61,120 nt of DNA from a virus (IMGVR_UViG_3300048856_000042:1-61120); one strand, 5' to 3'; counted from the stretch's first letter, positions 3,934 to 48,687 are shown. Program-made: numbers and translations. The notes: generated by a model from the sequence alone, not told the origin.

Positions 3934-6018
3934 TCATCGAGCTTCGACGGTTACCAAGAACCACCTGTTGCTGCCGTCAGTGAGTTGTTCGCGATCCACC
4001 ACGCCTCGCTCAAGATGACGAGTCATCTGACGGTGAACTGCCGAGCGAGAGATCTTACGGGCCTCAGCGATGGCCTGCGTAGTCATCGGACCGTGCTCGA
4101 GCAAACTGATGATCTCATCCCGGGCTTTCTTAGCCTGAGGGGTGCTTCGGCGATTGGCCCGCTCATCGTCAGTACCATGACGTTCCGGTCTTTCCTTCTC
4201 ATCACTAGACCATGGCTCGATCGTGGGCGACCACTCAAGGTTCTGAAGATTGCCCATGCGATAGGCTGCTCCTGGAATGGTCTTCGACTCAGTATCGATT
4301 CGCATATCTTTGCCACCAGTATGACTGATGTAGAAGCTATCCTCAGCCCATGCATGGTTAGCCACTGCACCGAGCATTCGTTGACCGGGGCGAGCCTTCT
4401 CAGCTTTAGCCATGTGATGAATGACGATAACCGCGACGTCATGCTTACGCGAAAGCACCTTCAGCGGTCGAAAGATCTTGTTCGTCATCTCCTGGGACTT
4501 GGTTTCTTCAACATCTCCAGCAGTCATCATCAGTGTATCGATGATCACCAGCTTATATGGTTGATCGTTCATTCCCTTGGCGAGCGTCTCATCGAGCCAC
4601 TCCTGCCATGCTTCATTTGAGATGGTGAAGCCTCGCTGGATGTAAGCCATCACATCCGGGTCGAACTTCTCTTCCTCTTCCTTCGGCAGCCACCAGATAC
4701 CAGCACCCTCTTCATCACGGACCAGCTCGAGCTTATCGGTAGTCTTGCCTACCCAGATCTTCGCTGATCGATTCTTTAGCGTGGCGGGTGGGTCTTCTTC
4801 TTGGATATATAGTACCGGGCCAGGATCTGCGACCCGAAAATGCCCCAGAAAATCAGCACCAGTAGCGACTGAGAAAGCCATGTCAAGGCCAACCCAAGAC
4901 TTATATGACTTAGGCTCGCCAGCAATAAACCCGCACGCACCTTTGGTGAGAACATCCTTGATGATGTACTTGGGCTTTTTGACGTTCTTGAGGAGGAAAC
5001 CGAGTCGTTCTGGTTCGGGTCGTTCGATTTCATCATCTTCCCCGTTTTCCTCTTTGTCGAGCTTCTCGATCGTCTCATCAGACCGTTTGGCAATTGCCTT
5101 GGAGGCTTCCGAGATGAGCCTACGCATTTCATCCTGGCGACCTTCGAACTTATTCCACACCGAAGGCTTGACGACTGATACGATCTCGGCTGTTGTGCAG
5201 CCAACATCAGCCAGGCATCGAATAAGATACCAGAGCTTCTCACTCTTATCTGCCCCGCCAGTATCCCGAGCGGTAAGCAATTCTCGAGCGGTATGGTTCA
5301 GCTTCAGCTTGACCCTAGCGATGACCGCGAGCCTATCAACTGCATCGATATCAGAGGATAGGGCCTCGGTTAGCTGGGTTTCACCGATCTTGAGCTCGGG
5401 TAGTTCAGCGAAGTCCGTCAACTCATATTGAGGACCGTCCATCCAAAGGATCTTACCCTTGGGGTAGTTACCGTGCTTATCTCGGTAATGGGGCTTATGG
5501 TTCTCCCACCCCGGAATGCGCAGCAACTGAGCAGTATCCCATCCACCAAGGTCAGCACCGAGGTGATAGGTGAGCTTTTGGTTCTCCTTGCCAGGCCACG
5601 ATGCCATAGCAAAGTTACCCGCCCCGCGGCGTGCTACCCAAAGAGCCTGGTATCGATCAGGTGATGACTCCCAGGCGATGGTAGGTTGATAATCTTCGAT
5701 CAGATAGGGGTTAGCTTCGTCGAGGTCAGCCCAGAGGGCATATTCCTCCATAGCGTAACCCTCTTGACGAATGGGGTATTCGAAGATGGAGGTGGACCAG
5801 TACAGATCATGCTGGGTGTGGGACAGCATGTAATCGATGATCTTGTCTTTCTCTTTCGGCCAATAGAACGAGGGTCCCTCATTGAACCCTGCGCGCCGCT
5901 TACCCGAGCGCTCTTGTTCTTCTCGGTCGATATAGGGAAAGAAGACATACCCTCGCTGAGGTCCCCATGCCTTGGAGATGAGTCTCAGTGCCTTCTCTGC
6001 GTCAGCCTTTGATACCAT
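3934..6018 (-). CDS. DNA primase-helicase (RepB-like primase + RepA/AAA_25 helicase + C-terminal HTH)
   Basis: Primase motifs LWADLD, ESSPDRYQALW, LLRIPG; Walker A GEPKSYKS, YIQEED, Walker B LVIIDTL, VIHH; C-terminal MTTQAIAEARKISRSAVHRQM HTH. Confidence 0.85.
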   Translation of the reverse strand: MVSKADAEKALRLISKAWGPQRGYVFFPYIDREEQERSGKRRAGFNEGPSFYWPKEKDKIIDYMLSHTQHDLYWSTSIFEYPIRQEGYAMEEYALWADLDEANPYLIEDYQPTIAWESSPDRYQALWVARRGAGNFAMASWPGKENQKLTYHLGADLGGWDTAQLLRIPGWENHKPHYRDKHGNYPKGKILWMDGPQYELTDFAELPELKIGETQLTEALSSDIDAVDRLAVIARVKLKLNHTARELLTARDTGGADKSEKLWYLIRCLADVGCTTAEIVSVVKPSVWNKFEGRQDEMRRLISEASKAIAKRSDETIEKLDKEENGEDDEIERPEPERLGFLLKNVKKPKYIIKDVLTKGACGFIAGEPKSYKSWVGLDMAFSVATGADFLGHFRVADPGPVLYIQEEDPPATLKNRSAKIWVGKTTDKLELVRDEEGAGIWWLPKEEEEKFDPDVMAYIQRGFTISNEAWQEWLDETLAKGMNDQPYKLVIIDTLMMTAGDVEETKSQEMTNKIFRPLKVLSRKHDVAVIVIHHMAKAEKARPGQRMLGAVANHAWAEDSFYISHTGGKDMRIDTESKTIPGAAYRMGNLQNLEWSPTIEPWSSDEKERPERHGTDDERANRRSTPQAKKARDEIISLLEHGPMTTQAIAEARKISRSAVHRQMTRHLERGVVDREQLTDGSNRWFLVTVEAR

Positions 6019-8852: not shown

Positions 8853-8983
8853 CAATGCGAGGAATCAGCCACTCGCAGAAGACCTGGTGAGTGAGAGCCG
8901 CACTTGAGGCGGACTTGGTCGAACTCGACAACGCGATCCGGACTGTCGCACCAGGCACTAAACCCGAACAAAGGAGTACTCAA

Positions 8984-9223
8984 ATGGCGAAGATTGAATT
9001 GACGCTCAAGATCAATGGAGTCGATCAGGATATGCCGGCATTGGGAGACGCCCCTCTTGATCTTCAACGAGTGGGCGATATCTCAAGTGCTGTTACTCTC
9101 TCTCTCATGGCGGCACTGAATGAGGAACAGGCCGAAGCGATGGCTGCGTCCGAAGCAGCAGAAATCGAAGCCGCCCGCGTAGAGGCGGAAACGATCAACG
9201 CCCAGCATGAGGAGACAGAGTAA
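8984..9223 (+). CDS. hypothetical protein
   Basis: AAGGAG RBS before MAKIEL. Confidence 0.7.
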   Translation: MAKIELTLKINGVDQDMPALGDAPLDLQRVGDISSAVTLSLMAALNEEQAEAMAASEAAEIEAARVEAETINAQHEETE

Positions 9224-9426
9224 TGGAAAAGACAACTATGGCCGCTGCCATGACTGGGCTCATCGCGACTGCAGCTGTGCTCGGAATGGTCATCATCGGT
9301 ACCAACGCTGCTCAGGTTGAAGGCACCAAACAGTTGACTTCCTGCGTCGAGGCGGGTGGCTCTTATCTGGTGAATGATGGTAACCCACTCTGCATCATGC
9401 CTGGTCAGGATCTTCCTGAGAGGTGA
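9223..9426 (+). CDS. small membrane/secreted protein
   Basis: Hydrophobic N-terminal helix, CVEAGG...C motif. Confidence 0.7.
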   Translation: MEKTTMAAAMTGLIATAAVLGMVIIGTNAAQVEGTKQLTSCVEAGGSYLVNDGNPLCIMPGQDLPER

Positions 9427-9623
9427 AAATCACCGTCCATTGTGGTCACTGCTCGGGTACTTTCGACTTTGAACACCCAGCAGTAACTCACGCAGCTCAA
9501 CTCAAAAACTTCGGAATCTCTTGCGCTTGGTGTGGAATTCTTCTAAAAATGCCCACCAATGAGATACATATGATCCCTGATCAATTACCCGAGAACGTAA
9601 CTAGGTTGCCTCGACGCGCTTGA
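9423..9623 (+). CDS. small Zn-ribbon protein
   Basis: CGHC...CAWC. Confidence 0.65.
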   Translation: MKITVHCGHCSGTFDFEHPAVTHAAQLKNFGISCAWCGILLKMPTNEIHMIPDQLPENVTRLPRRA

Positions 9624-15228: not shown

Positions 15229-17889
15229 TCATGCCGCGATACCAGAGATGTTGGGGTCAAACTTGCGTGCCTCAGCAATCTCAAGTACCTTGTTGTTCAC
15301 GAACCCATCATCGTAAACCTGCTCATCCGTGAGCTCAAGCTTGTTACCCCACCATGCGCCGAGCGCAACATCGGCAACAATCGGGATATCAACAACAGTG
15401 CCAAACTTCTTGTAAATGTAGTCCATGTCTTCCATGCACTTCTTGATGATGGGGATAACTCGCGAGACATAGTCGTTGCGAATCTCAAAGTTGATAGCAT
15501 CGTGCACGAGGCCAAGGCAGTGGGCGTACTGATCCCAGCCCTTGTTACGAAGGATCTTGTTAATGCGAATCATGGCGATAACGGCGAGGTCACTACCGAA
15601 GCCCTGCACTGGTGAGTTGATCGCCTGACGTTCGGCTTCAGCTCGGACCCCCTGATCAGGCGAGTAGATATCAGGTAGATGACGAACGCGACCCAGAGGG
15701 CTAACCACTCGACCATACTTGTGAACGAGGCGTCGTTGCTTCGCATGCCAAGGCAAAAGCTTGGGGTAGAGATCGAAGTAGGCGATTCGTGCGCCCTGTG
15801 CCTCCTGCTCGGTGAAGATAGAGCCATAGCTGTTGAAGGCGGTTTCGATAAACTTTCGCCAACCCATGCCATAGAGGAAACCAAAGTTGACTGGCTTGCC
15901 AACCTCTTTACGAATCTTGCTGGTAACCTGAGACTCAGGCAGGCCAGTGACTCGTGCTGCGGTTGATCGATGAATATCCCCCCCGATAGAGTAGATATGC
16001 TTCATCGTGGTTTCGTCGGCGAGATAGGCCCCGATCCTCAGCTCGATCTGAGAAAAATCCGCCTCGACGAACGTCCAACCTGGAGGTGCACCAAAGAGCC
16101 CCCGGATGAAAGGGTCACGAGGTACTTGTTGTAGGTTGACACCTCGAAGTTTACCCCGAGAACCCGATATCTTATCTGCGTCAGCCTTACCACTCGAAAG
16201 ACGCCCGGTGACAGTCCCGGCAAGCTTAAAGTTTGTATGGATTCTATGGTCTTCATCATATAGCTCGTTGTATGGGTTGAAGAATGCTGCCATCTGCTTC
16301 TGCTTGGTAACTCGCTCGAGCATCTGATCGACAGCTGGGTGTGGATAATCCTGTTGAATGTGCTTTAGTACATCTTCAGCCATACTAGGATCACCGGGTG
16401 AACCATCAGGCTTGGGCTTACCTCGCTCAAGCACTGGTAGTTCGAGCCAATCGAAAAGCATCCACTTAGCGAATCGACTCGCGTTGAAATTGACGGCAAG
16501 AGGCAGCTCTCGCTTGCCCTTGATCTGAGTAGGCCACTCGGGATGACCCGGCCATACCCATTGATCAATACTCTTAGGTCGATTATCGTTAGGGGTACTC
16601 CAAGCCATCAGATCCCTAGCTTGTTCCTCGCTTTCAGCGATACCGGCTGCCTCCTTGATCCGCTGATCAACCTCGGCGAGTCGCTGCTGAGCAATAGGAG
16701 TGCGCTTCTTCAATCGATCGACATCGATCCAGGCACCCCTAAGCTCGGAATCGATCAGGTCGCGTTGTGCCGGCATAGTCTCAAGGTCGAAGATGCGTCT
16801 GATACGAAGGTCTTCCTCGAGCTCAACCTCAAGCTGCTTCTTTATCCAGTAGGTATACCAAGTATCAAGTACGTTGTAATGCAGCACCTCAGCAATGGGG
16901 TACTTAGTCAAGTCGCCGGTGTCGATACCCCAGGGCTCAACACCAAGACGAGCCATAGCCTGAGGCTTAAGACCCTTTTGTACGTTCTCATTGAGCAATG
17001 CAATGGCGAGCATGGTATCGAAGGTGGGATAAAGTTTGCAGCCGAACCAGATCAACCATTTGCAGTCGAACGAGCTATTGTGAGCGATGACCTCACGAAT
17101 GTTTTGGATGTACTTACCTAACAGCTCGACAATGCGCTGCCAGTTACCCCGCCAGGGTGATTGAGGGTGCCAAAGGGGCAAAGCCCAGACCACTCGCTTT
17201 TTCGTGCCGAAGGAATCGATCACGATGCATGTTGCGGCGACCGAGACCATCCTCCCAGCGTCCATATAGTACTCGCCACCAGGCGCATACGTCTCGATAT
17301 CGATGGAGATTTCATCGGTCATCGAAAGGATCTTGAATAGCTTCTTGAGTTTATCCTTGTCATCTACGACTAGATAATCAGGTTGGGGGAAGGTATCAAC
17401 TAAGTCTTTGGTGCGGTTGACGAAGAGCCGCAGGTCGGCAAGATAACCTGGCTTCTGCCCCGGATTGCGGTTGATCGCAGAAGGCGAGAGCGTGCCCATC
17501 GCAACTGCTGTGCCTCCGAGAACGTCAAATGGTTTCCCACGGTATTTGGTAATACCGCTCTTACCCGTGACGGCTTGAAGGGCTTCATTACCCAAGCAGA
17601 GGATGAATTTTCGAGGATGTTCCTCAAGCTCTGGAATGAGATAGGCGGCGGCATGTTCCTTAAGCTGCTTAGTTGTGAGGCTGACATCAAACTCTCGACA
17701 CTTGATGACGGGGGTGAATAGGACTTTCGAGACATCAAGACCCATCTCCTTCAGCTCAAGGTCAAGTGCATCTTGGAATCGACCTGATGACTTACGATTG
17801 GTGATAACTACAATCTCGGCATCGAGAGGTCCAATCGAGAAACTGCTGTAATCATGTGATCCGCAGAGTTCGCAAATCTCGGCTACCAA
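15229..17889 (-). CDS. polA: family A DNA polymerase with N-terminal degenerate family-4 UDG-like domain and 3'-5' exonuclease
   Basis: Exo DIET, HNSSFD, YNVLD; Pol TGRLSS, NLQQVP, ADFSQIELR, KPVNFGFLYG, VHDAI; N-terminal VIKCR...ILCLGNEA...TLSPS UDG-like pattern. Confidence 0.93.
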   Translation of the reverse strand: MVAEICELCGSHDYSSFSIGPLDAEIVVITNRKSSGRFQDALDLELKEMGLDVSKVLFTPVIKCREFDVSLTTKQLKEHAAAYLIPELEEHPRKFILCLGNEALQAVTGKSGITKYRGKPFDVLGGTAVAMGTLSPSAINRNPGQKPGYLADLRLFVNRTKDLVDTFPQPDYLVVDDKDKLKKLFKILSMTDEISIDIETYAPGGEYYMDAGRMVSVAATCIVIDSFGTKKRVVWALPLWHPQSPWRGNWQRIVELLGKYIQNIREVIAHNSSFDCKWLIWFGCKLYPTFDTMLAIALLNENVQKGLKPQAMARLGVEPWGIDTGDLTKYPIAEVLHYNVLDTWYTYWIKKQLEVELEEDLRIRRIFDLETMPAQRDLIDSELRGAWIDVDRLKKRTPIAQQRLAEVDQRIKEAAGIAESEEQARDLMAWSTPNDNRPKSIDQWVWPGHPEWPTQIKGKRELPLAVNFNASRFAKWMLFDWLELPVLERGKPKPDGSPGDPSMAEDVLKHIQQDYPHPAVDQMLERVTKQKQMAAFFNPYNELYDEDHRIHTNFKLAGTVTGRLSSGKADADKISGSRGKLRGVNLQQVPRDPFIRGLFGAPPGWTFVEADFSQIELRIGAYLADETTMKHIYSIGGDIHRSTAARVTGLPESQVTSKIRKEVGKPVNFGFLYGMGWRKFIETAFNSYGSIFTEQEAQGARIAYFDLYPKLLPWHAKQRRLVHKYGRVVSPLGRVRHLPDIYSPDQGVRAEAERQAINSPVQGFGSDLAVIAMIRINKILRNKGWDQYAHCLGLVHDAINFEIRNDYVSRVIPIIKKCMEDMDYIYKKFGTVVDIPIVADVALGAWWGNKLELTDEQVYDDGFVNNKVLEIAEARKFDPNISGIAA

Positions 17890-17932
17890 GTGGTACTCCT
17901 TAAGTCGTATACCCCCATTATATCACACGGGG

Positions 17933-18376
17933 TTAAAAGATATCGTGCTTGTATACCTTGATACCAGCGGCTTGAAGCAGTTCCACACCAGCAGTCAGGC
18001 GATAAGGCAGGTCATATGTGAGCTTGGTTACGCCCGCATTGATCAGGCTCCGAGCGCATGCCGAACAAGGCATATGAGTGACATGTACCTCAGTACCTTC
18101 GAGTGCCAACCCATGGCGAGCAGCCCAAGCGATGGCGTTTCGCTCAGCGTGTTCCGCGACCTCGCAGCCACTCTCTGGCATTACGATGTTGTCGAAGAAT
18201 GGCTGCTTTTCGGCATGGACGCAATGGGGCATCCCTGCAGGAGCGCCATTATAGCCAGTGCTGACAATGCGACCGTCACGACTGAAAACGGCCCCCACTT
18301 GCAGCCTCGAGCACGTGCCTCTCTTTGCGATCGCATGAGCTACCTCCATCAGCATCTCGTCACGTGTAGTTCTCAC
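17933..18376 (-). CDS. dCMP deaminase
   Basis: TCSRLQVGAV, TGYNG, HAERNAI, PCSAC. Confidence 0.92.
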   Translation of the reverse strand: MRTTRDEMLMEVAHAIAKRGTCSRLQVGAVFSRDGRIVSTGYNGAPAGMPHCVHAEKQPFFDNIVMPESGCEVAEHAERNAIAWAARHGLALEGTEVHVTHMPCSACARSLINAGVTKLTYDLPYRLTAGVELLQAAGIKVYKHDIF

Positions 18377-18507
18377 AGATCATCCCCCATGCTCGCCTCG
18401 ACCGTGCATTGGAGGCCTTGAGCATTGATAGCCCCCACCACTGATTGGTATACGTCGGGGAACTCCTTAGCTCCACCCTCATGAATGACGATTTCCAGCT
18501 TAATCAT
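18373..18507 (-). CDS. small hypothetical protein (44 aa)
   Basis: MIKLEIVIHE...; coupled on both sides. Confidence 0.55.
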   Translation of the reverse strand: MIKLEIVIHEGGAKEFPDVYQSVVGAINAQGLQCTVEASMGDDL

Positions 18508-19376
18508 TAGTACCACAACTTTCCTTGATTGTTCCACATCTCGATCATTGGAAGATCGGCATCGAAGATATGAAGATTGGCGGTATGGAAGATCAACTTG
18601 CCAGGCCGCAACGGACGATGCGGGTTCGCTTCGCGGAGCTGATCGACAACCCATTGAACAAGGCGCACTGCGAGATAGACATCATCTTGGAAGTGCCTAA
18701 GCAGGTCCGTGGACCGCATGAAATAGGAGCAATCAATCTGCCCATCTCGGATGATGAAGTGGTACCCGAGAGTGCAGGGTACTCGCTTGCCATGTACTGC
18801 TCCAGTATCTTCAGGAAACCAGATCGGAAGGTATGCCTGGCGAGTATTCGGGGACTTGATCAGCTGATTGATGACATCGTTCAGATCTCCATAGGCAAAT
18901 CTAATTCCGATATTGATCTCGCCTTCACTGCCCCGAATCAATGAACCAGCATGTTTCGGCCACATGCGCTCGGGATAGGTGTGGGAGAATGCTTCGCCTT
19001 CGCTCTTGTGAGCAACGTTCGTGCCATCTTTCTTGGCAGCGAAAGGCCACCAAGCCTCGGAGGGGGAGGGATTAAGGGGCTCGCCACTGACTCGTTCGCG
19101 GAAATGATCTTCAGCCCAAGGCATCCGAGCGCCAGTGACAATGGCCACCTGCTCAGGGAATTCAGGCATCTCCCACTCGAAGATGACATGTAGCAACTCT
19201 CGCATGGGCATATCGATCGCCTGAGACTGCCACTCACCGACAGAGACCGGAGGCTGTGCTACCAGCTCATCACGAAGTCGACGAAAGATCGAGCGAAAGG
19301 TCTCATAACTGGGGCCCTCGGCCTCGTGAATCGTCGAAGCAATGAACATGGAAGCGGTTCCTCCGGTCTCTGACAT
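18507..19376 (-). CDS. thymidylate-synthase-fold enzyme, probably dCMP-specific (hydroxy)methyltransferase
   Basis: TRQAYLPIW, VPCTLGYHF, MRSTDLLRHFQDD (Asp at the Asn177-equivalent), NLHIF. Confidence 0.8.
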   Translation of the reverse strand: MSETGGTASMFIASTIHEAEGPSYETFRSIFRRLRDELVAQPPVSVGEWQSQAIDMPMRELLHVIFEWEMPEFPEQVAIVTGARMPWAEDHFRERVSGEPLNPSPSEAWWPFAAKKDGTNVAHKSEGEAFSHTYPERMWPKHAGSLIRGSEGEINIGIRFAYGDLNDVINQLIKSPNTRQAYLPIWFPEDTGAVHGKRVPCTLGYHFIIRDGQIDCSYFMRSTDLLRHFQDDVYLAVRLVQWVVDQLREANPHRPLRPGKLIFHTANLHIFDADLPMIEMWNNQGKLWY

Positions 19377-19445
19377 ATCCCGTATCACTCCGGGACGTTA
19401 ATCATGGGTGATTGATTAGATCATATCAACTGGGAATGACCCTAG

Positions 19446-19766
19446 TCAATCCTCTTCGGAATCGAGCAACCCGGCCGCAGCATCCGACCAGTAGTCGTGA
19501 GTCACGTCCGCGATACCTACAGCCATGTATGTGTTGATACCCATGCTGGCTTCCTGGAGAAGATCGTCAAACTCGTCTTCGTCGTTGATCACCGAGACGG
19601 CGATGGGAAGTACCCAACCGGTAACGATAAGGTTACCCGCCTTGCCATCTTTGTCGTTGATCACTGCCCATGACTGAGCATAGGCAGCGAGCTCGCGGAT
19701 CTTTCCATCCAGTTCGGACTTGATCCGTTTGTATACTGGGTCGTCGTTGATATTACTCATCATCAT
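19446..19766 (-). CDS. hypothetical protein
   Basis: AAGGAG RBS; overlaps the upstream stop. Confidence 0.65.
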   Translation of the reverse strand: MMMSNINDDPVYKRIKSELDGKIRELAAYAQSWAVINDKDGKAGNLIVTGWVLPIAVSVINDEDEFDDLLQEASMGINTYMAVGIADVTHDYWSDAAAGLLDSEED

Positions 19767-20784
19767 CTCCTTCGTCCTCGCCGCCACCCACGAAGGGTTC
19801 ACCGTACCGGCGACTGATGGGCATTCCGATTGGAGCGAAGTCCAGCGTGTCGATATGAACCGAGGGGAGTGGCTCATAAGCCTTGAAGAACTCTTTCTTC
19901 TCGCCTTTCATTGGACCTTTCTTGTAAAACTCCCAGCCCTCGAACTGCTGAGCGTACTCAAGTCCATGAACCTCAGTGTGGTATCGACGAACCACTCGAC
20001 GGAAGGTATTGTATGTCAGGGCTCCGAGAGTTCGACCCTCAGCATCTTCCCGGACGACTTTCTGGATCCACTTGCGTGAGCCAAGTAGAGCGGGATGCTC
20101 GATGACCATGAGCTTCTCTTCACGAGTGAAGGTGTTGCTTGGCTCAAGCAGCAGTCGTCGAAAGAGCTTTGACTTCTCGGGATCAGGGTTGTTGAGCAGG
20201 AAGGACATGGACTTGAAGAAATGCCACTGAGTCGCTTCATTGATCCACACGAAACTGATGTCCTTGACCGAGATGCCAAGCTCTCGAGCGATGTACTTTC
20301 CGAGCATGTAAGCGACACCCATATCGAGTCCACCGACATATCCGAGATATGATGTTCTCGAGTGAAGAACGATCGTCGGGCGAGGCAGCGCTTTGTAGCT
20401 GAAGCTCAGCATACAGGCACCCCAGGTACGAGTCTGCTTGTTCGAGTGGCCAGTTGCCTCACCACCTCGGGGCTTGACCGTCTTGGTACGCATGACAGCG
20501 ATGCCGCGTTCCTTGACCCCGATCTTCGAAGTGATACGACCGATCCACTGCTCGAGGTCCTGAGGATCGATATACTGACGCACGAGCATCGACCAGCGAG
20601 CCTTCGTAAGCCAGGAGGATTTGAGGTCGAAGTCGAAGTCCATCGAATCCGCTTCAGCAACTACTAGATGCTGCTGCACATCGACAGAGCTGACTAGATC
20701 GAGGTCTTCGCGCTTACCCCAGACGAGACCATCGACAAGCTCATCGTAGAGCTCAGTCATCGTGGAGGTGTGGAAATTCCTCAT
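19753..20784 (-). CDS. highly divergent second thymidylate-synthase-fold protein
   Basis: WGACMLSFSY, LHSRTSYLGYVGGLD and ATQWHFF align in order with the TS PC, RSxD...N and HxY motifs. Confidence 0.6.
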   Translation of the reverse strand: MRNFHTSTMTELYDELVDGLVWGKREDLDLVSSVDVQQHLVVAEADSMDFDFDLKSSWLTKARWSMLVRQYIDPQDLEQWIGRITSKIGVKERGIAVMRTKTVKPRGGEATGHSNKQTRTWGACMLSFSYKALPRPTIVLHSRTSYLGYVGGLDMGVAYMLGKYIARELGISVKDISFVWINEATQWHFFKSMSFLLNNPDPEKSKLFRRLLLEPSNTFTREEKLMVIEHPALLGSRKWIQKVVREDAEGRTLGALTYNTFRRVVRRYHTEVHGLEYAQQFEGWEFYKKGPMKGEKKEFFKAYEPLPSVHIDTLDFAPIGMPISRRYGEPFVGGGEDEGDDDE

Positions 20785-21344
20785 CGGCCGGAATCCTTTG
20801 CTGAGTCGGGAATAAATTGGCGTCCCAAAACAGCGCACCAATTCAAAGGTCCTTGATACGAACCAAGTCGACCGAAAGTCACCCGGCATTCGACTGCTTC
20901 GTCATCGAGAGCGCGCTTGCAGCCAGGGCACTTGGTGCTGACTCCATCGTACTCCTCGTTCTGGCGCTTCTCATTCTTAGCGTGCTTGGCGTCGTAGCGC
21001 CGCTTGATTTCCATCTCATCGAGACCCAGGAGCAAAGCCCCATTGAGCATGAAGTGGAACATATCGATCCACTCACCCCGAGCTGCCTCCATGTTGACGA
21101 AGGCACCCTTTGCCCAGGGCTTCCACCCGGTCTCACCCTCCATCTCCACCATTTCGTGGAGGAGCGCCTTGTCATTCCACTGCATCATCTTGATGATACC
21201 AGCGGCAGCATCATCGGTCGAGAGCTGAGCAGCTTCTGCACCGGCGAACTCATTGAAGAGCTTGGTGGGATGGGGCGAACCGTTCTTTTCTTCCATGACT
21301 CGCTGCAGATCGCTCTGCTGGTCGAGGAAATACTGGAGACTCAC
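20781..21344 (-). CDS. all-alpha dNTP pyrophosphatase (dimeric dUTPase/dCTPase, MazG superfamily)
   Basis: HEMVEM...WKPW...EWIDMFHF...KHAKNEKRQ...Y. Confidence 0.85.
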   Translation of the reverse strand: MSLQYFLDQQSDLQRVMEEKNGSPHPTKLFNEFAGAEAAQLSTDDAAAGIIKMMQWNDKALLHEMVEMEGETGWKPWAKGAFVNMEAARGEWIDMFHFMLNGALLLGLDEMEIKRRYDAKHAKNEKRQNEEYDGVSTKCPGCKRALDDEAVECRVTFGRLGSYQGPLNWCAVLGRQFIPDSAKDSGR

Positions 21345-21889
21345 TTGGTGTTCCTTTCAGCCTTCCGGTCAGCCAGGAGGCCCAGTACAAAGCCCTCCGT
21401 CTCGCCCGGATAGGTATCGGTGTAATCGTGGATGATGGTGCGAGTAGGACGATTGATCAGGTCGAGGGTTGCTCGCTGAAGGTATGCCGTGTAGATCTGC
21501 TCGATATGATCGACGACCTGGGTGTTATCCGGATCGCCTTCGAGATTGAATCTGACTGTGTCGAGTGGCGGCAGGCAGTAGATAATGATCGGATCGTTCT
21601 CGTAGAGCTTGCTCATCGAGTGCAGCACCCAGTCGAAGTCAGTGAATCCGGGCTGCTGAGTGATCCTCAGTGTCGGTCCATAGATGAACTCGCTGATCAA
21701 CCTGTAGCGATCATAGATGGCGTCGTGAGGACCCTGATCCAAGTTATCCTCGACCCACACCTTCAAGTCGAGGAGTGCCTTCGTCTCCTTGTTAACCACC
21801 CGTTTAGCTACCTCGAAGCCTGTAAGCTCTTGAATCGACTTGATCAGGGTAGTCTTGCCTGCCCCATCGGGACCTTCGACGATGATCAC
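21341..21889 (-). CDS. deoxynucleoside monophosphate kinase (thymidylate-kinase-like)
   Basis: IIVEGPDGAGKTT, YDRY..SE..YG. Confidence 0.88.
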   Translation of the reverse strand: MIIVEGPDGAGKTTLIKSIQELTGFEVAKRVVNKETKALLDLKVWVEDNLDQGPHDAIYDRYRLISEFIYGPTLRITQQPGFTDFDWVLHSMSKLYENDPIIIYCLPPLDTVRFNLEGDPDNTQVVDHIEQIYTAYLQRATLDLINRPTRTIIHDYTDTYPGETEGFVLGLLADRKAERNTK

Positions 21890-22041
21890 TACTTGCTCCT
21901 GAACTTCGTGTCGGCGCGAATGGCTTCGGAGTTAGCCTGAACTTGATCAGTCAGTGCGCTGATGTGAACTGCAAGCAAAAGACCCAAAACGATAACTACG
22001 GCGAACAGCGCCCAGATGAGAAAGGTGAGTGCGGTTTCCAT
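21889..22041 (-). CDS. small membrane protein (50 aa)
   Basis: METALTFLIWALFAVVIVLGLLL; coupled on both sides. Confidence 0.6.
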   Translation of the reverse strand: METALTFLIWALFAVVIVLGLLLAVHISALTDQVQANSEAIRADTKFRSK

Positions 22042-22274
22042 CAGATCTCCTCGACTTCAATCCAGAGAGTCTGACCAATCAGGGTCCGTTCTTCTTCACT
22101 GTCCTCAGGACCGTCATAGTGATTCTCGACCTTCACGTCGGTGACGGTTGAAATGATACCCGAGTTCTTATCGATGATGGCCACCCTTGCTTCGGGGGAA
22201 ATCTTTCCATCGAGGAACTGAGCCGAGAGGAGCGTTGATCGCGAGACGATGTCACTGGCGGTTTTGATTTCCAT
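22041..22274 (-). CDS. hypothetical protein (leaderless, first gene of the nucleotide operon)
   Basis: ATG sits at the predicted +1 of the adjacent promoter. Confidence 0.7.
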   Translation of the reverse strand: MEIKTASDIVSRSTLLSAQFLDGKISPEARVAIIDKNSGIISTVTDVKVENHYDGPEDSEEERTLIGQTLWIEVEEI

Positions 22275-22280
22275 GCTTTA

Positions 22281-22309
22281 ACCCTATCTTATCCCCGTTA
22301 CCTTGTCAA
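22281..22309 (-). promoter_or_regulatory. SigA-type promoter of the nucleotide-metabolism operon
   Basis: TTGACA-N17-TAGGGT. Confidence 0.75.
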
Positions 22310-22318
22310 TGGTCTCAT

Positions 22319-23872
22319 TCACCCGAAAGTCTTACCAAGTCGAAGCAGGCGATCCGGGGATTCGATCATCATCTTACCCATGTCCCCATCCTTCAGCAGC
22401 GTCTCGTACCTAAGCTCATCGACGGTATCCTTACCCAAGTAGAACTCATGGAAGGTAGGGTGAGGACTCAGCGCGATCCGGTCAGAGAACTGTTTGAAAT
22501 TCACCCAGGAAGTGGGGAGGGAATACCACTGAAGAATGCTGGCGGCAGACAGGTCGATAGCTTCACCGGCTGCAGCAGGCTGTCCAATGAAGATGGCTCC
22601 CCCAGAAACTTTACTGAACTGATGAGGTATGGGTGCCCGGTCCGCCTGCTTAACCCCACCATGAATGGCGAAGGTCGGAACGCCCAACTTCTTTCCAAGC
22701 TTGATAAGTCGTGCAATGTCGTGCTTGAAGAGTGCACCGATAACCACCTTCTCGTCTGCTTCCATAAGGTCCGTGAGCCGGTCTTCAATCGCCCTCAGCT
22801 TCTCTGCCCCAATGATGACGAGACGGCCCTCAGGATGTTCCTTGCTCGGCGTCGTCTTTGCCACCCCGGAAGTGATCTGCTGAAGCCTGAGCTGTTGGAC
22901 GAGCTTGATCGACGCTTCGGTAATCTCTCCGGTCCGGATACGTGCAACCATATCCTCTGCCATCTGGTCATAGGCTTTTCCAGACTCTTCCAGGGGGACA
23001 GAGATGATCTGTGTCGTTTGGGGAGGTAGGTCATAACATTCTTCTCGAGTAATGCTGAAACTATCAAGATGGATAAGGGAGTGAAGCTTCTTCTCATTTC
23101 GGGGACCGAGAAACTTCTGGTATTTCTCCTGAGCAAGCCAGCGTCCGTACTCCGCCTTGAACTCAGCGAAGTTCATGGGATTACCCCACTCATCGACGAA
23201 TCGCTCAGGATTGAGGAACTTCCATTGACTGTAGACGTCGAAGAGTCGTTTCTCCTTCGTCACAACAGTACCCGTCATCAGTGTGCGATACTCAGCATGC
23301 TTACCCAGTGAGTGAATCGCTGTCGACTTTTTGGCACTGGGGGACTTGATACGATGGCTCTCATCGAGAGTAATGAGTTGCGGGTTCCACCTGATCACCA
23401 TGTTCTTCATAGCATAGCGACCGCCCTTGGTCTTCGACCTCAGGTGATTGCCTTCCTTGTCAAGAACAGGCTTACCCTTGTCTGGCCCCCGCATGTGATA
23501 CCGAAGCTCACCCGGTGTGGAGAAGGCGTCGTAGTTAATGATGACGATGTCGAGGATATCCTTCCCATACGCCGGCATACGCCCATTCTTTCGACCGTCC
23601 CGATCCATAATGACAAGGCGGTACTTCACTGGGCAATTAACTTCGAGCTCTCGCCTCCACACCTCAATGGCGACCACCGGGCAGATGATCACCCACCGGT
23701 TCATGCCATGAAACTCATGGAGGATCGAAGCATAGTCGATCATGGTTTTGGTCTTACCAGTTCGGGGCTCCATGAGCAAAGCACCACCATAACCAGTCTT
23801 CAGTAGTTTCTTGACTGCTTGAACCTGGTGCTTGTATGGCTTGGTCTTGAACCTATAGATTCGACGACTCAC
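22319..23872 (-). CDS. SNF2-family SF2 helicase
   Basis: MEPRTGKT, INYD, LDESHRIK, MTGT, QFSDRI. Confidence 0.88.
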   Translation of the reverse strand: MSRRIYRFKTKPYKHQVQAVKKLLKTGYGGALLMEPRTGKTKTMIDYASILHEFHGMNRWVIICPVVAIEVWRRELEVNCPVKYRLVIMDRDGRKNGRMPAYGKDILDIVIINYDAFSTPGELRYHMRGPDKGKPVLDKEGNHLRSKTKGGRYAMKNMVIRWNPQLITLDESHRIKSPSAKKSTAIHSLGKHAEYRTLMTGTVVTKEKRLFDVYSQWKFLNPERFVDEWGNPMNFAEFKAEYGRWLAQEKYQKFLGPRNEKKLHSLIHLDSFSITREECYDLPPQTTQIISVPLEESGKAYDQMAEDMVARIRTGEITEASIKLVQQLRLQQITSGVAKTTPSKEHPEGRLVIIGAEKLRAIEDRLTDLMEADEKVVIGALFKHDIARLIKLGKKLGVPTFAIHGGVKQADRAPIPHQFSKVSGGAIFIGQPAAAGEAIDLSAASILQWYSLPTSWVNFKQFSDRIALSPHPTFHEFYLGKDTVDELRYETLLKDGDMGKMMIESPDRLLRLGKTFG

Positions 23873-48339: not shown

Positions 48340-48687
48340 CTAATACCAAGTAGCTACCATGTCCCCATCGACATTGGTGAGCACCAGGTGATGCTTAAGA
48401 GGTGTCCGATTTTGCATATCCTCACGACTGGGACCTACCAGACCACCAGGATGCGTATGCCAAATGACAACGTCATCGTTCATTCGATCAAGCGGAACTT
48501 TGAAATGGAGAACTGCAGTCTTCAGTTCGGAAAGGTAGAAGAGGAATTGGTTGTGTGGATGTTCTGAGTGGTTATACAGGACATGCACTTCCTTTTCTCG
48601 GACAATGATACCGCCCACCTCGTTGGGCAAAGCATCCGCCATCAGCATCTTCAGCGAGGTTTCTACCTTGCCCTCGATTTGAAACAT
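48340..48687 (-). CDS. JAB/MPN metalloprotease-domain protein
   Basis: PNEVGG...WHTHPGGLVGPSREDM (E-HxH-x7-S-xx-D). Confidence 0.85.
   Translation of the reverse strand: MFQIEGKVETSLKMLMADALPNEVGGIIVREKEVHVLYNHSEHPHNQFLFYLSELKTAVLHFKVPLDRMNDDVVIWHTHPGGLVGPSREDMQNRTPLKHHLVLTNVDGDMVATWY

What the first reader, a model, noticed from the sequence alone, without database searches (positions are those of the whole stretch)
15229..22309. Candidate novel pyrimidine-replacement (modified base) pathway
Seen: one contiguous minus-strand block with dNMP kinase, all-alpha dNTP pyrophosphatase (WKPW / ExxDxxHF type), two TS-fold genes, dCMP deaminase and a UDG-fused PolA. Known: this make-modified-dNMP, phosphorylate, destroy-the-normal-dNTP logic underlies T4 hmC (gp42, gp1, gp56) and SPO1 hmU (deaminase, hydroxymethylase, kinase, PolA with UDG-like domain). 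Here SPO1-like parts are combined with T4-like cytosine specificity and an extra TS paralogue, and no glycosyltransferase is recognisable. Palindromes such as CTCGAG, TCGA and GATC look abundant by eye (not counted), consistent with protection from restriction. Inference: virion DNA carries a modified C (or T) that may be chemically new.
Basis: partly seen in the sequence, partly recalled or inferred. Interest (0 to 1): 0.88.

Follow-up and report, generated by a model that had tools for sequence, protein, structure and literature searches.

The report
Phage cytosine-modification cassette, two TS folds
A soil phage related to Microbacterium phage Triscuit carries a conserved gene cassette that looks built to make a modified cytosine nucleotide, using one T4-like enzyme and a second uncharacterised enzyme of the same fold, but whether its DNA really holds an unusual base is untested.

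Summary
[quoted passage not shown] The recognisable TS homologue (TS-A) has Asp at the Asn177 specificity position. Its nearest solved structure is T4 dCMP hydroxymethylase. The second (TS-B) has no Pfam or NCBIfam hit and is a TS fold only by structure prediction.

The cassette is not special to this phage. It is collinear in 42 of 42 IMG/VR loci that hold all six genes. TS-B occurs in 85 cultured actinophage records, including Muddy. One genome announcement reads four of its genes as a "thymine synthesis" operon.

The palindrome argument fails: TCGA, GATC and CTCGAG are explained by lower-order composition. The UDG-like domain lacks the catalytic motifs. No glycosyltransferase appeared among 40 ORFs scanned.

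A T4-like modified-cytosine pathway is the best reading (about 0.45). Canonical DNA with a dTTP-supply role remains a serious rival. "Chemically new" is speculation resting on TS-B. This scan had already noted the same cassette on other DNA.

The parts
15229..17889 (-). [quoted passage not shown]
   Evidence: Pfam DNA_pol_A 1e-67, DNA_pol_A_exo1 8e-11, UDG 5e-09. PHROG 17 at 1e-134. The UDG region reads ITNRKS and SPS where the catalytic motifs are expected.
17933..18376 (-). dCMP deaminase (147 aa).
   Evidence: Pfam dCMP_cyt_deam_1 3e-23. PHROG 174 dCMP deaminase 7e-50. HAE and PCxxC zinc motifs are visible in the translation.
18507..19376 (-). TS-A: a divergent thymidylate-synthase homologue (289 aa) with the cytosine-type Asp. 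Probably a dCMP C5-hydroxymethylase or methylase.
   Evidence: Pfam TS 30.2 bits, cut-off 24.3. PDB sequence hits are T4 TS, T4 gp42 and MilA. Invariant in 27 of 27 members: C201, R198 (at Ec L143), R221 (Ec R166) and D232 (Ec N177); D224 (Ec D169) is in at least 90%. The top Foldseek hit is 1b49, T4 dCMP hydroxymethylase, E 3.6e-10. The gene caller's product on record is 280 aa (P0182), so the start codon is uncertain.
19446..19730 (-). Small ORF (94 aa) between TS-B and TS-A, function unknown. Related loci carry variable small genes at this place.
   Evidence: No Pfam, PHROG or NCBIfam hit. 32% tblastn match at the position of Triscuit gp65. Other loci hold different small ORFs here.
19753..20784 (-). 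TS-B: a 343-aa protein of an uncharacterised family with a TS fold, a C-terminal extension of about 140 aa and an acidic tail.
   Evidence: No Pfam or NCBIfam match; PHROG 13667 'unknown', 1e-132. AF2 pLDDT 88.7. Foldseek PDB hits are 9iqu/9iqc, MilA and ThyA; BFVD hits are viral TS and dCMP hydroxymethylases. Invariant: C124, R143, Y146, D154, Q186, H188. 435 relatives at E<=0.001.
20781..21344 (-). All-alpha NTP pyrophosphatase of the dimeric dUTPase family (187 aa) with a Cys-rich C-terminal extension. Substrate unknown (dUTP and/or dCTP).
   Evidence: Pfam dUTPase_2 2e-09. PHROG 18650 dUTPase 2e-87. Weak PDB hits to dimeric dUTPases 1w2y and 2yay, with the WK.W and E..D..HF motifs aligned.
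21341..21889 (-). P-loop (d)NMP kinase-like protein (182 aa).
   Evidence: PHROG 761 'thymidylate kinase' 3e-21. Pfam dNK and NCBIfam dTMP kinase match only at the P-loop and below cut-off. Relatives in phage records are annotated as thymidylate kinase or polynucleotide kinase.
21889..22274 (-). Two small ORFs (50 and 77 aa) between the kinase and the helicase, function unknown.
   Evidence: ORF list. For the 77-aa ORF: no Pfam or PHROG hit, and one NCBIfam hit far below cut-off (E 0.013, 15.7 bits against 125). The 50-aa ORF was not scanned.
22319..23872 (-). SNF2-family helicase (517 aa). It lies just outside the flagged range but is collinear with the cassette in relatives.
   Evidence: Pfam SNF2-rel_dom 9e-15, Helicase_C 8e-06. 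Collinear in 42 of 42 loci that hold all six genes.

Best explanation
The block is a conserved pre-replicative pyrimidine-nucleotide cassette whose core is a T4-like route to a C5-modified deoxycytidine nucleotide.

Inferred flow:
1. The dimeric-dUTPase-family pyrophosphatase returns dCTP and/or dUTP to the monophosphate.
2. TS-A takes dCMP (Asp at the Asn177 position) and adds a one-carbon unit at C5. Hydroxymethyl is more likely than methyl, because the residue at the Leu143 position is an invariant Arg rather than a bulky hydrophobic residue, and the C-terminus aligns with T4 gp42 rather than with the long tail of canonical TS.
3. The phage kinase phosphorylates the modified monophosphate, and a host NDP kinase completes it.
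4. The phage PolA incorporates it.
5. The dCMP deaminase feeds dUMP to a host (or, in Triscuit, a phage) thymidylate synthase so that dTTP supply continues, as in T4.

TS-B is a second enzyme of the same fold that keeps a Cys, an Arg and an Asp at the catalytic, phosphate-binding and cytosine-recognition places. It has Tyr where Asp169 lies; from recall, that Asp contacts the folate. TS-B probably acts on the same nucleotide pool with a different co-substrate. Its reaction is unknown.

Shown: gene identities, folds, conserved residues and synteny. Inferred: substrates, products, the order of steps, and that the base ends up in virion DNA.
For: TS-A:
- Asp232 aligns without gaps to Asn of T4 TS and to Asp of T4 gp42 and MilA, and to Asn of Triscuit's canonical ThyA.
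- C201, R198, R221 and D232 are invariant in 27 of 27 members.
- The nearest solved structure is T4 dCMP hydroxymethylase, 1b49 (E 3.6e-10, TM by target 0.65). AfhB (0.70, 0.66) and MilA also rank high.
- The alignment to gp42 runs to residue 232 of 246, so TS-A shares gp42's short C-terminus.

Published rules (Lee et al. 2026, PMC13326640, sections 24 and 28 read): Asp at 177 gives dCMP preference; a bulky Leu143 is thought to exclude water and favour methyl; Asn at 169 marks 5-hydroxy-dCMP synthases. In a metagenome survey (Yang et al. 2021, PMC8670742, passages read), position 177 was among the top two positions separating modified from unmodified contigs. The authors hypothesised Asn in unmodified and Asp in modified contigs.

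Triscuit carries a canonical ThyA (Pfam 410 bits) next to its TS-A orthologue (87% identical to the window's). This is the T4 arrangement of td plus gp42 and argues that TS-A is not simply the dTMP synthase.

Synteny: 47 of 48 IMG/VR loci hold both TS-A and TS-B; the remaining locus is cut inside TS-B. All 42 loci with helicase, kinase, TS-B, TS-A, deaminase and PolA are collinear on one strand.

TS-B is the best conserved cassette gene, with median identity 57% against 53% for PolA and 50% for TS-A. It exceeds TS-A in 41 of 47 loci, which suggests an enzyme under strong constraint.
Against: - No chemical or sequencing-signal evidence exists. The only run holding this DNA is kept as assembled contigs.
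- The Leu143 position is Arg, not the Asp/Glu of known hydroxymethylases, so the product is uncertain.
- The pyrophosphatase belongs to the dimeric dUTPase family. No test here shows that it cleaves dCTP, and without a dCTPase replacement of C would be partial at best.
- The kinase is identified only weakly: all Pfam and NCBIfam hits are below cut-off.
- No glycosyltransferase or other post-replicative modifier appeared among 40 ORFs scanned.
- The cassette sits in 85 cultured phage records, including Muddy, and my searches found no report of unusual DNA.
- The Azira genome announcement reads four of the cassette's genes (deaminase, TS, dUTPase, kinase) as thymine synthesis.
- The phage (about 54% G+C) and Triscuit (58.3%) may be poorer in G+C than their hosts; the host figure is from recall, not from any call. 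If so, extra dTTP supply would be a sufficient reason for such genes.
Confidence: 0.45

Rival explanations
1. Canonical DNA, with the cassette only boosting dTTP. There are two versions. (a) Classical route: the deaminase and dUTPase make dUMP, a TS makes dTMP and the kinase makes dTDP. (b) A dUMP-free route: TS-A methylates dCMP to 5-methyl-dCMP and the adjacent deaminase converts that to dTMP. Virion DNA would hold only the four normal bases.
For: - All four named activities fit thymidylate supply, and the literature reads them so (Azira announcement, PMC10353413, passages read).
- The deaminase lies next to TS-A in every complete locus.
- No downstream modifier was found in 40 scanned ORFs.
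- There are no reports of odd DNA for the cultured carriers.
It would explain the Asp.
Against: - Version (a) conflicts with the invariant Asp at position 177, Thr at 147 and Arg at 143 in TS-A. It also conflicts with Triscuit keeping a separate canonical ThyA.
- Version (b) needs reductive methyl transfer, but TS-A lacks the long C-terminal segment of canonical TS and aligns with the hydroxymethylase gp42 there.
- Neither version explains TS-B, the most conserved gene of the cassette.
Confidence: 0.28
2. Thymine replacement through cytosine intermediates. TS-A makes 5-hydroxymethyl-dCMP, the deaminase converts it to 5-hydroxymethyl-dUMP, the kinase activates it, and 5-hydroxymethyluracil (or a derivative) enters DNA in place of T.
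For: - The deaminase is always adjacent to TS-A.
- PolA carries a UDG-like domain. Active UDG-PolA fusions occur in phages with T-modified DNA that also encode a deaminase, a dUTP-cleaving enzyme and a TS homologue (Missoury et al. 2026, PMC13697223, abstract, section 15 and passages read).
Against: - The UDG-like domain here lacks the catalytic motifs, as described for the N4-like cluster.
- No 5-hmdU DNA kinase or aGPT-pyrophosphorylase family was found among 40 ORFs scanned with Pfam.
- Triscuit's extra canonical ThyA implies that dTMP is still wanted.
- A dUMP hydroxymethylase with Asn would be the simpler route.
Confidence: 0.1
3. TS-A and TS-B form one heterodimeric enzyme, with TS-B as a non-catalytic or regulatory subunit that completes the shared active sites of TS-A. 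There would then be a single new activity rather than two.
For: - The two genes are adjacent, with TS-B upstream of TS-A, in all 47 untruncated IMG/VR loci and in Triscuit, Hexbug and Muddy.
- From established knowledge, recalled: TS enzymes are obligate dimers with active sites built from both subunits.
- Both models have invariant yet low-confidence loops, TS-A residues 103-160 and TS-B residues 106-118, that could order on binding.
Against: - TS-B keeps its own Cys, Arg and Asp at the catalytic places and is more conserved than TS-A. This fits an active enzyme better than a scaffold.
- There is no direct evidence of contact.
Confidence: 0.15

Closest known systems
Phage T4 hydroxymethylcytosine pathway (gp42 dCMP hydroxymethylase, gp1 dNMP kinase, gp56 dCTPase/dUTPase, cd dCMP deaminase, td thymidylate synthase)
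   Same: - The same set of activity classes lies in one block.
- TS-A has the gp42-type Asp, the catalytic Cys and a gp42-like short C-terminus, and 1b49 is its nearest solved structure.
- Triscuit pairs TS-A with a canonical ThyA, as T4 pairs gp42 with td.
   Different: - Arg rather than Asp/Glu at the Leu143 position.
- The pyrophosphatase is of the dimeric dUTPase family and its substrate is untested.
- There is an extra TS-fold gene (TS-B).
- No glucosyltransferase was found.
- The host range is Actinomycetota and the virus is a siphovirus of about 60 kb.
- The T4 gene list is from recall, not from a call.
5-hydroxy-dCMP synthases (RB69 gp48, DLP3 gp80, HY126 AfhB; PDB 9iqu, 9iqc)
   Same: They are TS-fold, cytosine-specific and flavin-using rather than folate-using. 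They are the best Foldseek PDB hits of TS-B (E 3e-08 and 1.5e-07) and high-ranking hits of TS-A.
   Different: The diagnostic Asn at position 169 (Lee et al. 2026) is absent: TS-A has Asp224 and TS-B has Tyr146. TM-scores for TS-B are low (0.38 by query, 0.57 by target). No arabinose or other sugar pathway genes were found.
Canonical thymidylate synthase ThyA, with dCMP deaminase, dUTPase and dTMP kinase ('thymine synthesis' operon as annotated in cluster CT Gordonia phages)
   Same: The same Pfam family for TS-A and the same neighbouring activities. This is the published reading of the deaminase, TS, dUTPase and kinase genes.
   Different: - TS-A scores 49 bits against a cut-off of 174.55 on its best NCBIfam TS model, and 26 bits against 327 on the best bacterial-type model.
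- It has Asp, Thr and Arg at positions 177, 147 and 143.
- It lacks the long C-terminal segment.
- TS-B has no counterpart in that operon.
PolA with a fused, inactive UDG domain (N4-like cluster as summarised by Missoury et al. 2026)
   Same: An N-terminal family-4 UDG-like fold on an A-family polymerase, with the catalytic motifs lost.
   Different: Membership of the N4-like cluster was not tested here. The polymerase's nearest relatives are those of actinophages.

Membership tests
T4-type dCMP hydroxymethylase (for TS-A) | TS fold with the catalytic Cys in a Pro-Cys motif. | tested here: met
   Pfam TS is above cut-off. P200 and C201 are invariant in 27 of 27 members. The top Foldseek hit is 1b49.
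T4-type dCMP hydroxymethylase (for TS-A) | Asp at the position of E. coli Asn177 (cytosine specificity). | tested here: met
   D232 aligns to gp42's Asp and to Asn of T4 TS without gaps. It is invariant in 27 of 27 members.
T4-type dCMP hydroxymethylase (for TS-A) | Acidic residue (Asp/Glu) at the position of E. coli Leu143. The rule is as stated by Lee et al. 2026. | tested here: not met
   R198 is invariant. The alignment to canonical ThyA places it opposite Leu.
T4-type dCMP hydroxymethylase (for TS-A) | The product is 5-hydroxymethyl-dCMP. | not testable with these tools
   This needs an enzyme assay with dCMP and methylene-tetrahydrofolate.
Canonical thymidylate synthase ThyA (for TS-A) | Asn177, His147 and Leu143, and a score above the curated family cut-off. 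| tested here: not met
   TS-A has D232, T202 and R198. The NCBIfam TS models give 49.3 against 174.55 and 26.2 against 327 bits.
5-hydroxy-dCMP synthase (AfhB / RB69 gp48 type), for TS-A and TS-B | Asn at the position of E. coli Asp169 (Lee et al. 2026). | tested here: not met
   TS-A has D224, present in at least 90% of members. TS-B has Y146, invariant. The placement in TS-B rests on motif spacing and a non-significant hhalign alignment.
Thymidylate synthase fold (for TS-B) | Structural similarity to TS-family structures. | tested here: met
   The AF2 model has pLDDT 88.7. Every row shown in the Foldseek PDB list (ranks 1-49) is a TS-family entry, and 129 matches reached E <= 0.001. BFVD hits are viral TS and dCMP hydroxymethylases. 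Sequence profiles do not detect the relationship: hhalign gives probability 0.4 against TS-A and 0.3 against ThyA.
T4-like base-replacement system (whole cassette) | A dCTPase that removes the normal triphosphate. | tested here: inconclusive
   The protein belongs to the dimeric dUTPase family. Base specificity cannot be read from these matches.
T4-like base-replacement system (whole cassette) | A kinase for the modified monophosphate. | tested here: inconclusive
   PHROG thymidylate kinase 3e-21. Pfam and NCBIfam hits cover the P-loop only and are below cut-off.
T4-like base-replacement system (whole cassette) | A modified base present in virion DNA. | not testable with these tools
   Only assembled contigs of one soil metagenome run hold this DNA. 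No raw signal is available.
SPO1-type hydroxymethyluracil system | A dUMP hydroxymethylase with Asn at position 177, and a PolA with a catalytically intact UDG domain. | tested here: not met
Both TS-fold proteins have Asp at that place. The UDG motifs are replaced.
Thymidine hypermodification systems (5-hmdU DNA kinase plus aGPT-pyrophosphorylase) | Presence of those two families. | tested here: not met
   Neither appeared among 40 window ORFs scanned against Pfam. ORFs not scanned could still hide one.

The most novel reading that the evidence does not exclude
TS-A makes 5-hydroxymethyl-dCMP. TS-B is a TS-fold enzyme that keeps the nucleophilic Cys and the cytosine-reading Asp but has Tyr in place of Asp169. 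It turns that nucleotide (or dCMP itself) into a further, so far undescribed C5-substituted cytosine at the mononucleotide level. Possible routes are oxidation with a flavin, or exchange of the hydroxyl through the exocyclic-methylene intermediate. That base would then replace C in the DNA of a large clade of actinophages, including the therapeutic phage Muddy and some 68 Gordonia phage records.
Probability: 0.18. Interest if true: 0.9.

Novelty: new variant of a known kind. Interest (0 to 1): 0.62.

Why it matters
If these phages replace cytosine, a whole clade has DNA chemistry that nobody has looked for: 85 cultured phage records, including Muddy, which is used in compassionate therapy, and at least 48 IMG/VR contigs. 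That would bear on their resistance to host restriction and CRISPR, on how they can be engineered and sequenced, and on how the current 'thymidylate synthase' annotation should read.

TS-B would add a new branch to the TS superfamily. That superfamily has recently turned out to include flavin-dependent hydroxylases (Lee et al. 2026).

The question is cheap to settle, because cultured relatives grow on laboratory strains. If the answer is negative, the cassette would still show a non-standard, Asp-type route within pyrimidine supply.

Tried and rejected
- Heterodimer test. Complex prediction on TS-A plus TS-B, using alignments paired by locus (A5, A6), gave no verdict: score 0.01 against a mark of 0.32, and the controls were not run. 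It counts neither for nor against binding.
- Expression and read-level evidence. The look-up of sequencing runs listed one DNA holder, a soil metagenome kept as contigs that may be the source of this DNA, and no RNA holder. Read laying was therefore not used, because contigs cannot show modification.
- Sequence-profile link between TS-A and TS-B. hhalign found none (probability 0.4). TS-B against canonical ThyA gave probability 0.3, although the top alignment did pair Cys, Arg and Asp with their expected partners.
- Archaeal comparison. The best NCBIfam hit of TS-A is the methanogen-type TS model. The genome search returned only the window's own match, and the control genomes carry no handles, so I could not check which residue those archaeal enzymes have at position 177.
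- Kinase relatives. Homologues occur in Rosemountvirus phages such as Salmonella phage BP63, next to a DHFR-like gene. This gave no functional lead.
- Small genes between TS-B and TS-A in related loci are variable and carry no recognisable enzyme features by eye. They were not scanned against families.
- Literature. I found no paper linking these phages to modified bases: Microbacterium phage + hydroxymethylcytosine, 0 papers; actinobacteriophage + dCMP hydroxymethylase, 0 papers. Broader searches gave nothing relevant in the rows listed.
- Not done: the search of protein representatives, and a family scan of every small ORF.

Full report
**What the DNA is.** The window is the whole record, 61,120 bases. 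It is a phage genome assembled from a soil metagenome with about 54% G+C. Over the flagged 7 kb it is 82% identical in nucleotides to Microbacterium phages Triscuit and Huwbert, with 90% of the query covered. It also matches many Gordonia, Mycobacterium and other actinophages more distantly.

**Checking the observation.** On the minus strand, from 22274 down to 15229, lie the following genes:
- two small ORFs;
- a P-loop kinase (21341-21889);
- a dimeric-dUTPase-family pyrophosphatase (20781-21344);
- a 343-aa protein without any Pfam or NCBIfam match (19753-20784);
- a 94-aa ORF;
- a divergent thymidylate-synthase homologue (18507-19376);
- a dCMP deaminase (17933-18376);
- an 886-aa PolA with a UDG-like N-terminus (15229-17889).

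I tested TS-B by structure prediction on an alignment of 25 sequences. The model has mean pLDDT 88.7 and pTM 0.86. Foldseek against the PDB returned TS-family entries: phage HY126 dCMP hydroxylase AfhB (9iqu, E 3e-08; 9iqc), CMP hydroxymethylase MilA, then many ThyA structures, with modest TM-scores of 0.38 by query and 0.57 by target. The viral model library gave the same picture, and the ESM Atlas neighbours are viral hypothetical proteins and TS clusters. So the fold call is sound, although no sequence profile detects it.

**The palindromes.** TCGA, GATC and CTCGAG are 2.7, 2.1 and 3.4 times more frequent than base composition predicts. Against a maximal-order Markov expectation the ratios are 1.00, 0.91 and 1.09. 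Their abundance is a by-product of shorter-word usage. It is no sign of freedom from restriction.

**TS-A.** Alignments to T4 thymidylate synthase, T4 gp42 and MilA are ungapped across the Arg-Ser-x-Asp strand and the following helix. They put Asp232 opposite Asn of T4 TS and opposite Asp of gp42 and MilA. The same holds against Triscuit's canonical ThyA.

In 27 family members from the window and IMG/VR loci, C201, P200, R221 (Ec R166), D232 (Ec N177) and R198 (Ec L143) are invariant. D224 (Ec D169) is present in at least 90%.

Lee et al. 2026 (PMC13326640; outline, sections 24 and 28 and passages read) give the current rules:
- Asp at 177 confers dCMP preference.
- A bulky Leu at 143 is thought to exclude water and give methyl, while known hydroxymethylases have Asp/Glu there.
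- Asn at 169 marks the flavin-dependent 5-hydroxy-dCMP synthases.

TS-A therefore reads as cytosine-specific and not of the 5-hydroxy type, with an unprecedented Arg at 143. Its model (pLDDT 75.7, weak between residues 103 and 160) is closest to T4 dCMP hydroxymethylase 1b49 (E 3.6e-10). Its short C-terminus aligns with that of gp42, whereas canonical ThyA continues for some 35 further residues. I take hydroxymethylation of dCMP as the most likely reaction, with methylation second.

**TS-B.** Invariant residues include C124, R143, Y146, D154, Q186 and H188. The predicted strand-hairpin-strand-helix around them matches the TS core. By spacing, and in the non-significant hhalign alignment:
- C124 sits at the catalytic Cys;
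- R143 sits at Arg166;
- Y146 sits at Asp169;
- D154 sits at Asn177.

A Cys and a cytosine-type Asp, together with loss of Asp169 (the folate-contacting residue, from recall), suggest an active enzyme on a cytosine nucleotide that does not use folate in the usual way. TS-B also has a C-terminal extension of about 140 aa with an Arg-rich helix and an acidic tail. It has 435 relatives at E<=0.001, most on phage-sized contigs and none with a Pfam domain.

**How general the cassette is.** A scan of IMG/VR with the TS-B alignment gave 48 loci. By tblastn, 47 hold both TS-A and TS-B; the other locus is cut inside TS-B. Forty-two hold helicase, kinase, TS-B, TS-A, deaminase and PolA, and all 42 are collinear on one strand.

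TS-B is the best conserved gene, with median identity 57%. The others are helicase 54%, PolA 53%, TS-A 50%, deaminase 48% and kinase 44%. TS-B exceeds TS-A in 41 of 47 loci. The pyrophosphatase was detected in only 24 of 48 loci at this sensitivity. Muddy and Hexbug annotate a dUTPase at that place that tblastn also missed.

Among cultured phages, TS-B is present in 85 records: Gordonia 68, Mycobacterium 9, Streptomyces 4, Microbacterium 2, Curtobacterium 1 and Mycobacteroides 1. It is annotated as hypothetical in the 40 rows shown. In Muddy (gp44-50) and Hexbug (gp51-60) the order is the same, and their TS-A orthologues also have Asp at the specificity position.

Triscuit differs from the window by an additional canonical ThyA (Pfam 410 bits) inserted between the deaminase and TS-A. 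The window has none. The four weak "ThyA" tblastn hits in IMG/VR loci fall on TS-A itself.

**What else is in the genome.** Pfam scans of 40 ORFs found replication, recombination, lysis and regulator domains but no glycosyltransferase, methyltransferase, 5-hmdU DNA kinase or aGPT-pyrophosphorylase. Triscuit's annotation lists none either. Many small ORFs remain unscanned.

**The UDG-PolA fusion.** The UDG-like region has ITNRKS and SPS where the catalytic motifs are expected. Missoury et al. 2026 (PMC13697223; outline, passages and section 15 read) summarise two earlier clusters of UDG-PolA fusions: N4-like with catalytic residues lost, and SPO1-like with them kept. They add an SP15-like group from T-modified phages. 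An inactive UDG-like domain is thus no marker of base modification.

**Weighing the readings.**

For a modified cytosine:
- the invariant Asp and the gp42-like architecture of TS-A;
- the companion kinase and pyrophosphatase;
- the T4-like coexistence of TS-A with a true ThyA in Triscuit;
- the metagenomic association of position 177 with modified contigs (Yang et al. 2021, PMC8670742, passages read).

Against:
- there is no chemical evidence;
- the substrates of the pyrophosphatase and the kinase are uncertain;
- no downstream modifier was found;
- there is no report of odd DNA in well-used phages such as Muddy;
- there is a plausible mundane need for dTTP in phages that may be poorer in G+C than their hosts. 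Triscuit is 58.3% (Jacobs-Sera et al. 2020, PMC7302621, passages read); the host value is from recall.

The only published reading I found treats four cassette genes as thymine synthesis (Azira announcement, PMC10353413, passages read).

It fits the Asp and the adjacency of the deaminase, but not the gp42-like C-terminus or the existence of TS-B.

I put a modified cytosine in virion DNA at about 0.45, canonical DNA at about 0.28 and a hydroxymethyluracil route at about 0.10. A genuinely new base that depends on TS-B is at about 0.18; that reading overlaps with the first. The heterodimer reading (about 0.15) concerns how TS-A and TS-B assemble. It is compatible with any of these outcomes and is not part of that sum.

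**Novelty.** The logic is that of T4. The new elements are the Arg-143 type of cytosine-specific TS homologue, the unrecognised TS-fold family TS-B, and the wide distribution in actinophages under a "thymidylate synthase / hypothetical protein" annotation. This scan has met the same cassette on other genomes, and an earlier follow-up reached a similar view. My results were obtained independently of it and agree.

Noticed in passing
L001:9462-10259 (Triscuit gp67) compared with window 18376-18507: Triscuit and Huwbert carry a canonical ThyA between the deaminase and TS-A. The window phage lacks it, and the 48 IMG/VR loci show none within their fetched ~16-kb stretches. The window's deaminase is also shorter (147 aa against 194 aa).
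   Followed up: partly
window 20781-20960 (C-terminal ~60 aa of the dUTPase-family protein): There is a Cys-rich extension (CPGC ... C ... C) that looks like a small zinc ribbon. It is absent from the shorter Muddy and Hexbug dUTPases (about 152 aa).
   Followed up: no
window 19753-19790 (C-terminus of TS-B): The acidic tail (Gly-rich, then Asp/Glu) is conserved in the Microbacterium-like clade but absent in Muddy and Hexbug. It recalls the acidic tails that tether proteins to replisomes.
   Followed up: no
L019, L021, L024, L025 between TS-B and TS-A (about 8900-9600 in each locus): Several related loci carry an extra small gene here. It has a conserved C-terminal motif (…VLHND…YHPVP…GW…IGKG.GRV.VPL…) and a Cys-rich N-terminal part. 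Others carry an unrelated ORF of about 150 aa. Their function is unknown.
   Followed up: partly
L055:5034-6211 (Salmonella phage BP63): The cassette's kinase has 30-37% identical relatives in Rosemountvirus phages of Salmonella and Escherichia. In BP63 the relative sits next to a DHFR-like gene that is annotated as hypothetical.
   Followed up: partly
window 3934-6018 (-): A 694-aa protein combines a RepB-type primase domain, an AAA_25/DnaB-like ATPase and a C-terminal winged-helix domain. It is probably the replicative primase-helicase.
   Followed up: no
window 48340-48687 (-): A 115-aa protein has a prokaryotic JAB/MPN domain (Pfam 1.8e-10) and lies among small early genes of unknown function.
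   Followed up: no
window, whole: A few 6-bp palindromes are about half as frequent as the Markov expectation: GGATCC 6 against 14.2, GGGCCC 4 against 9.6, TCATGA 10 against 21.2, CGATCG 27 against 46.1. With 64 words tested this may be chance, and significance was not assessed.
   Followed up: partly
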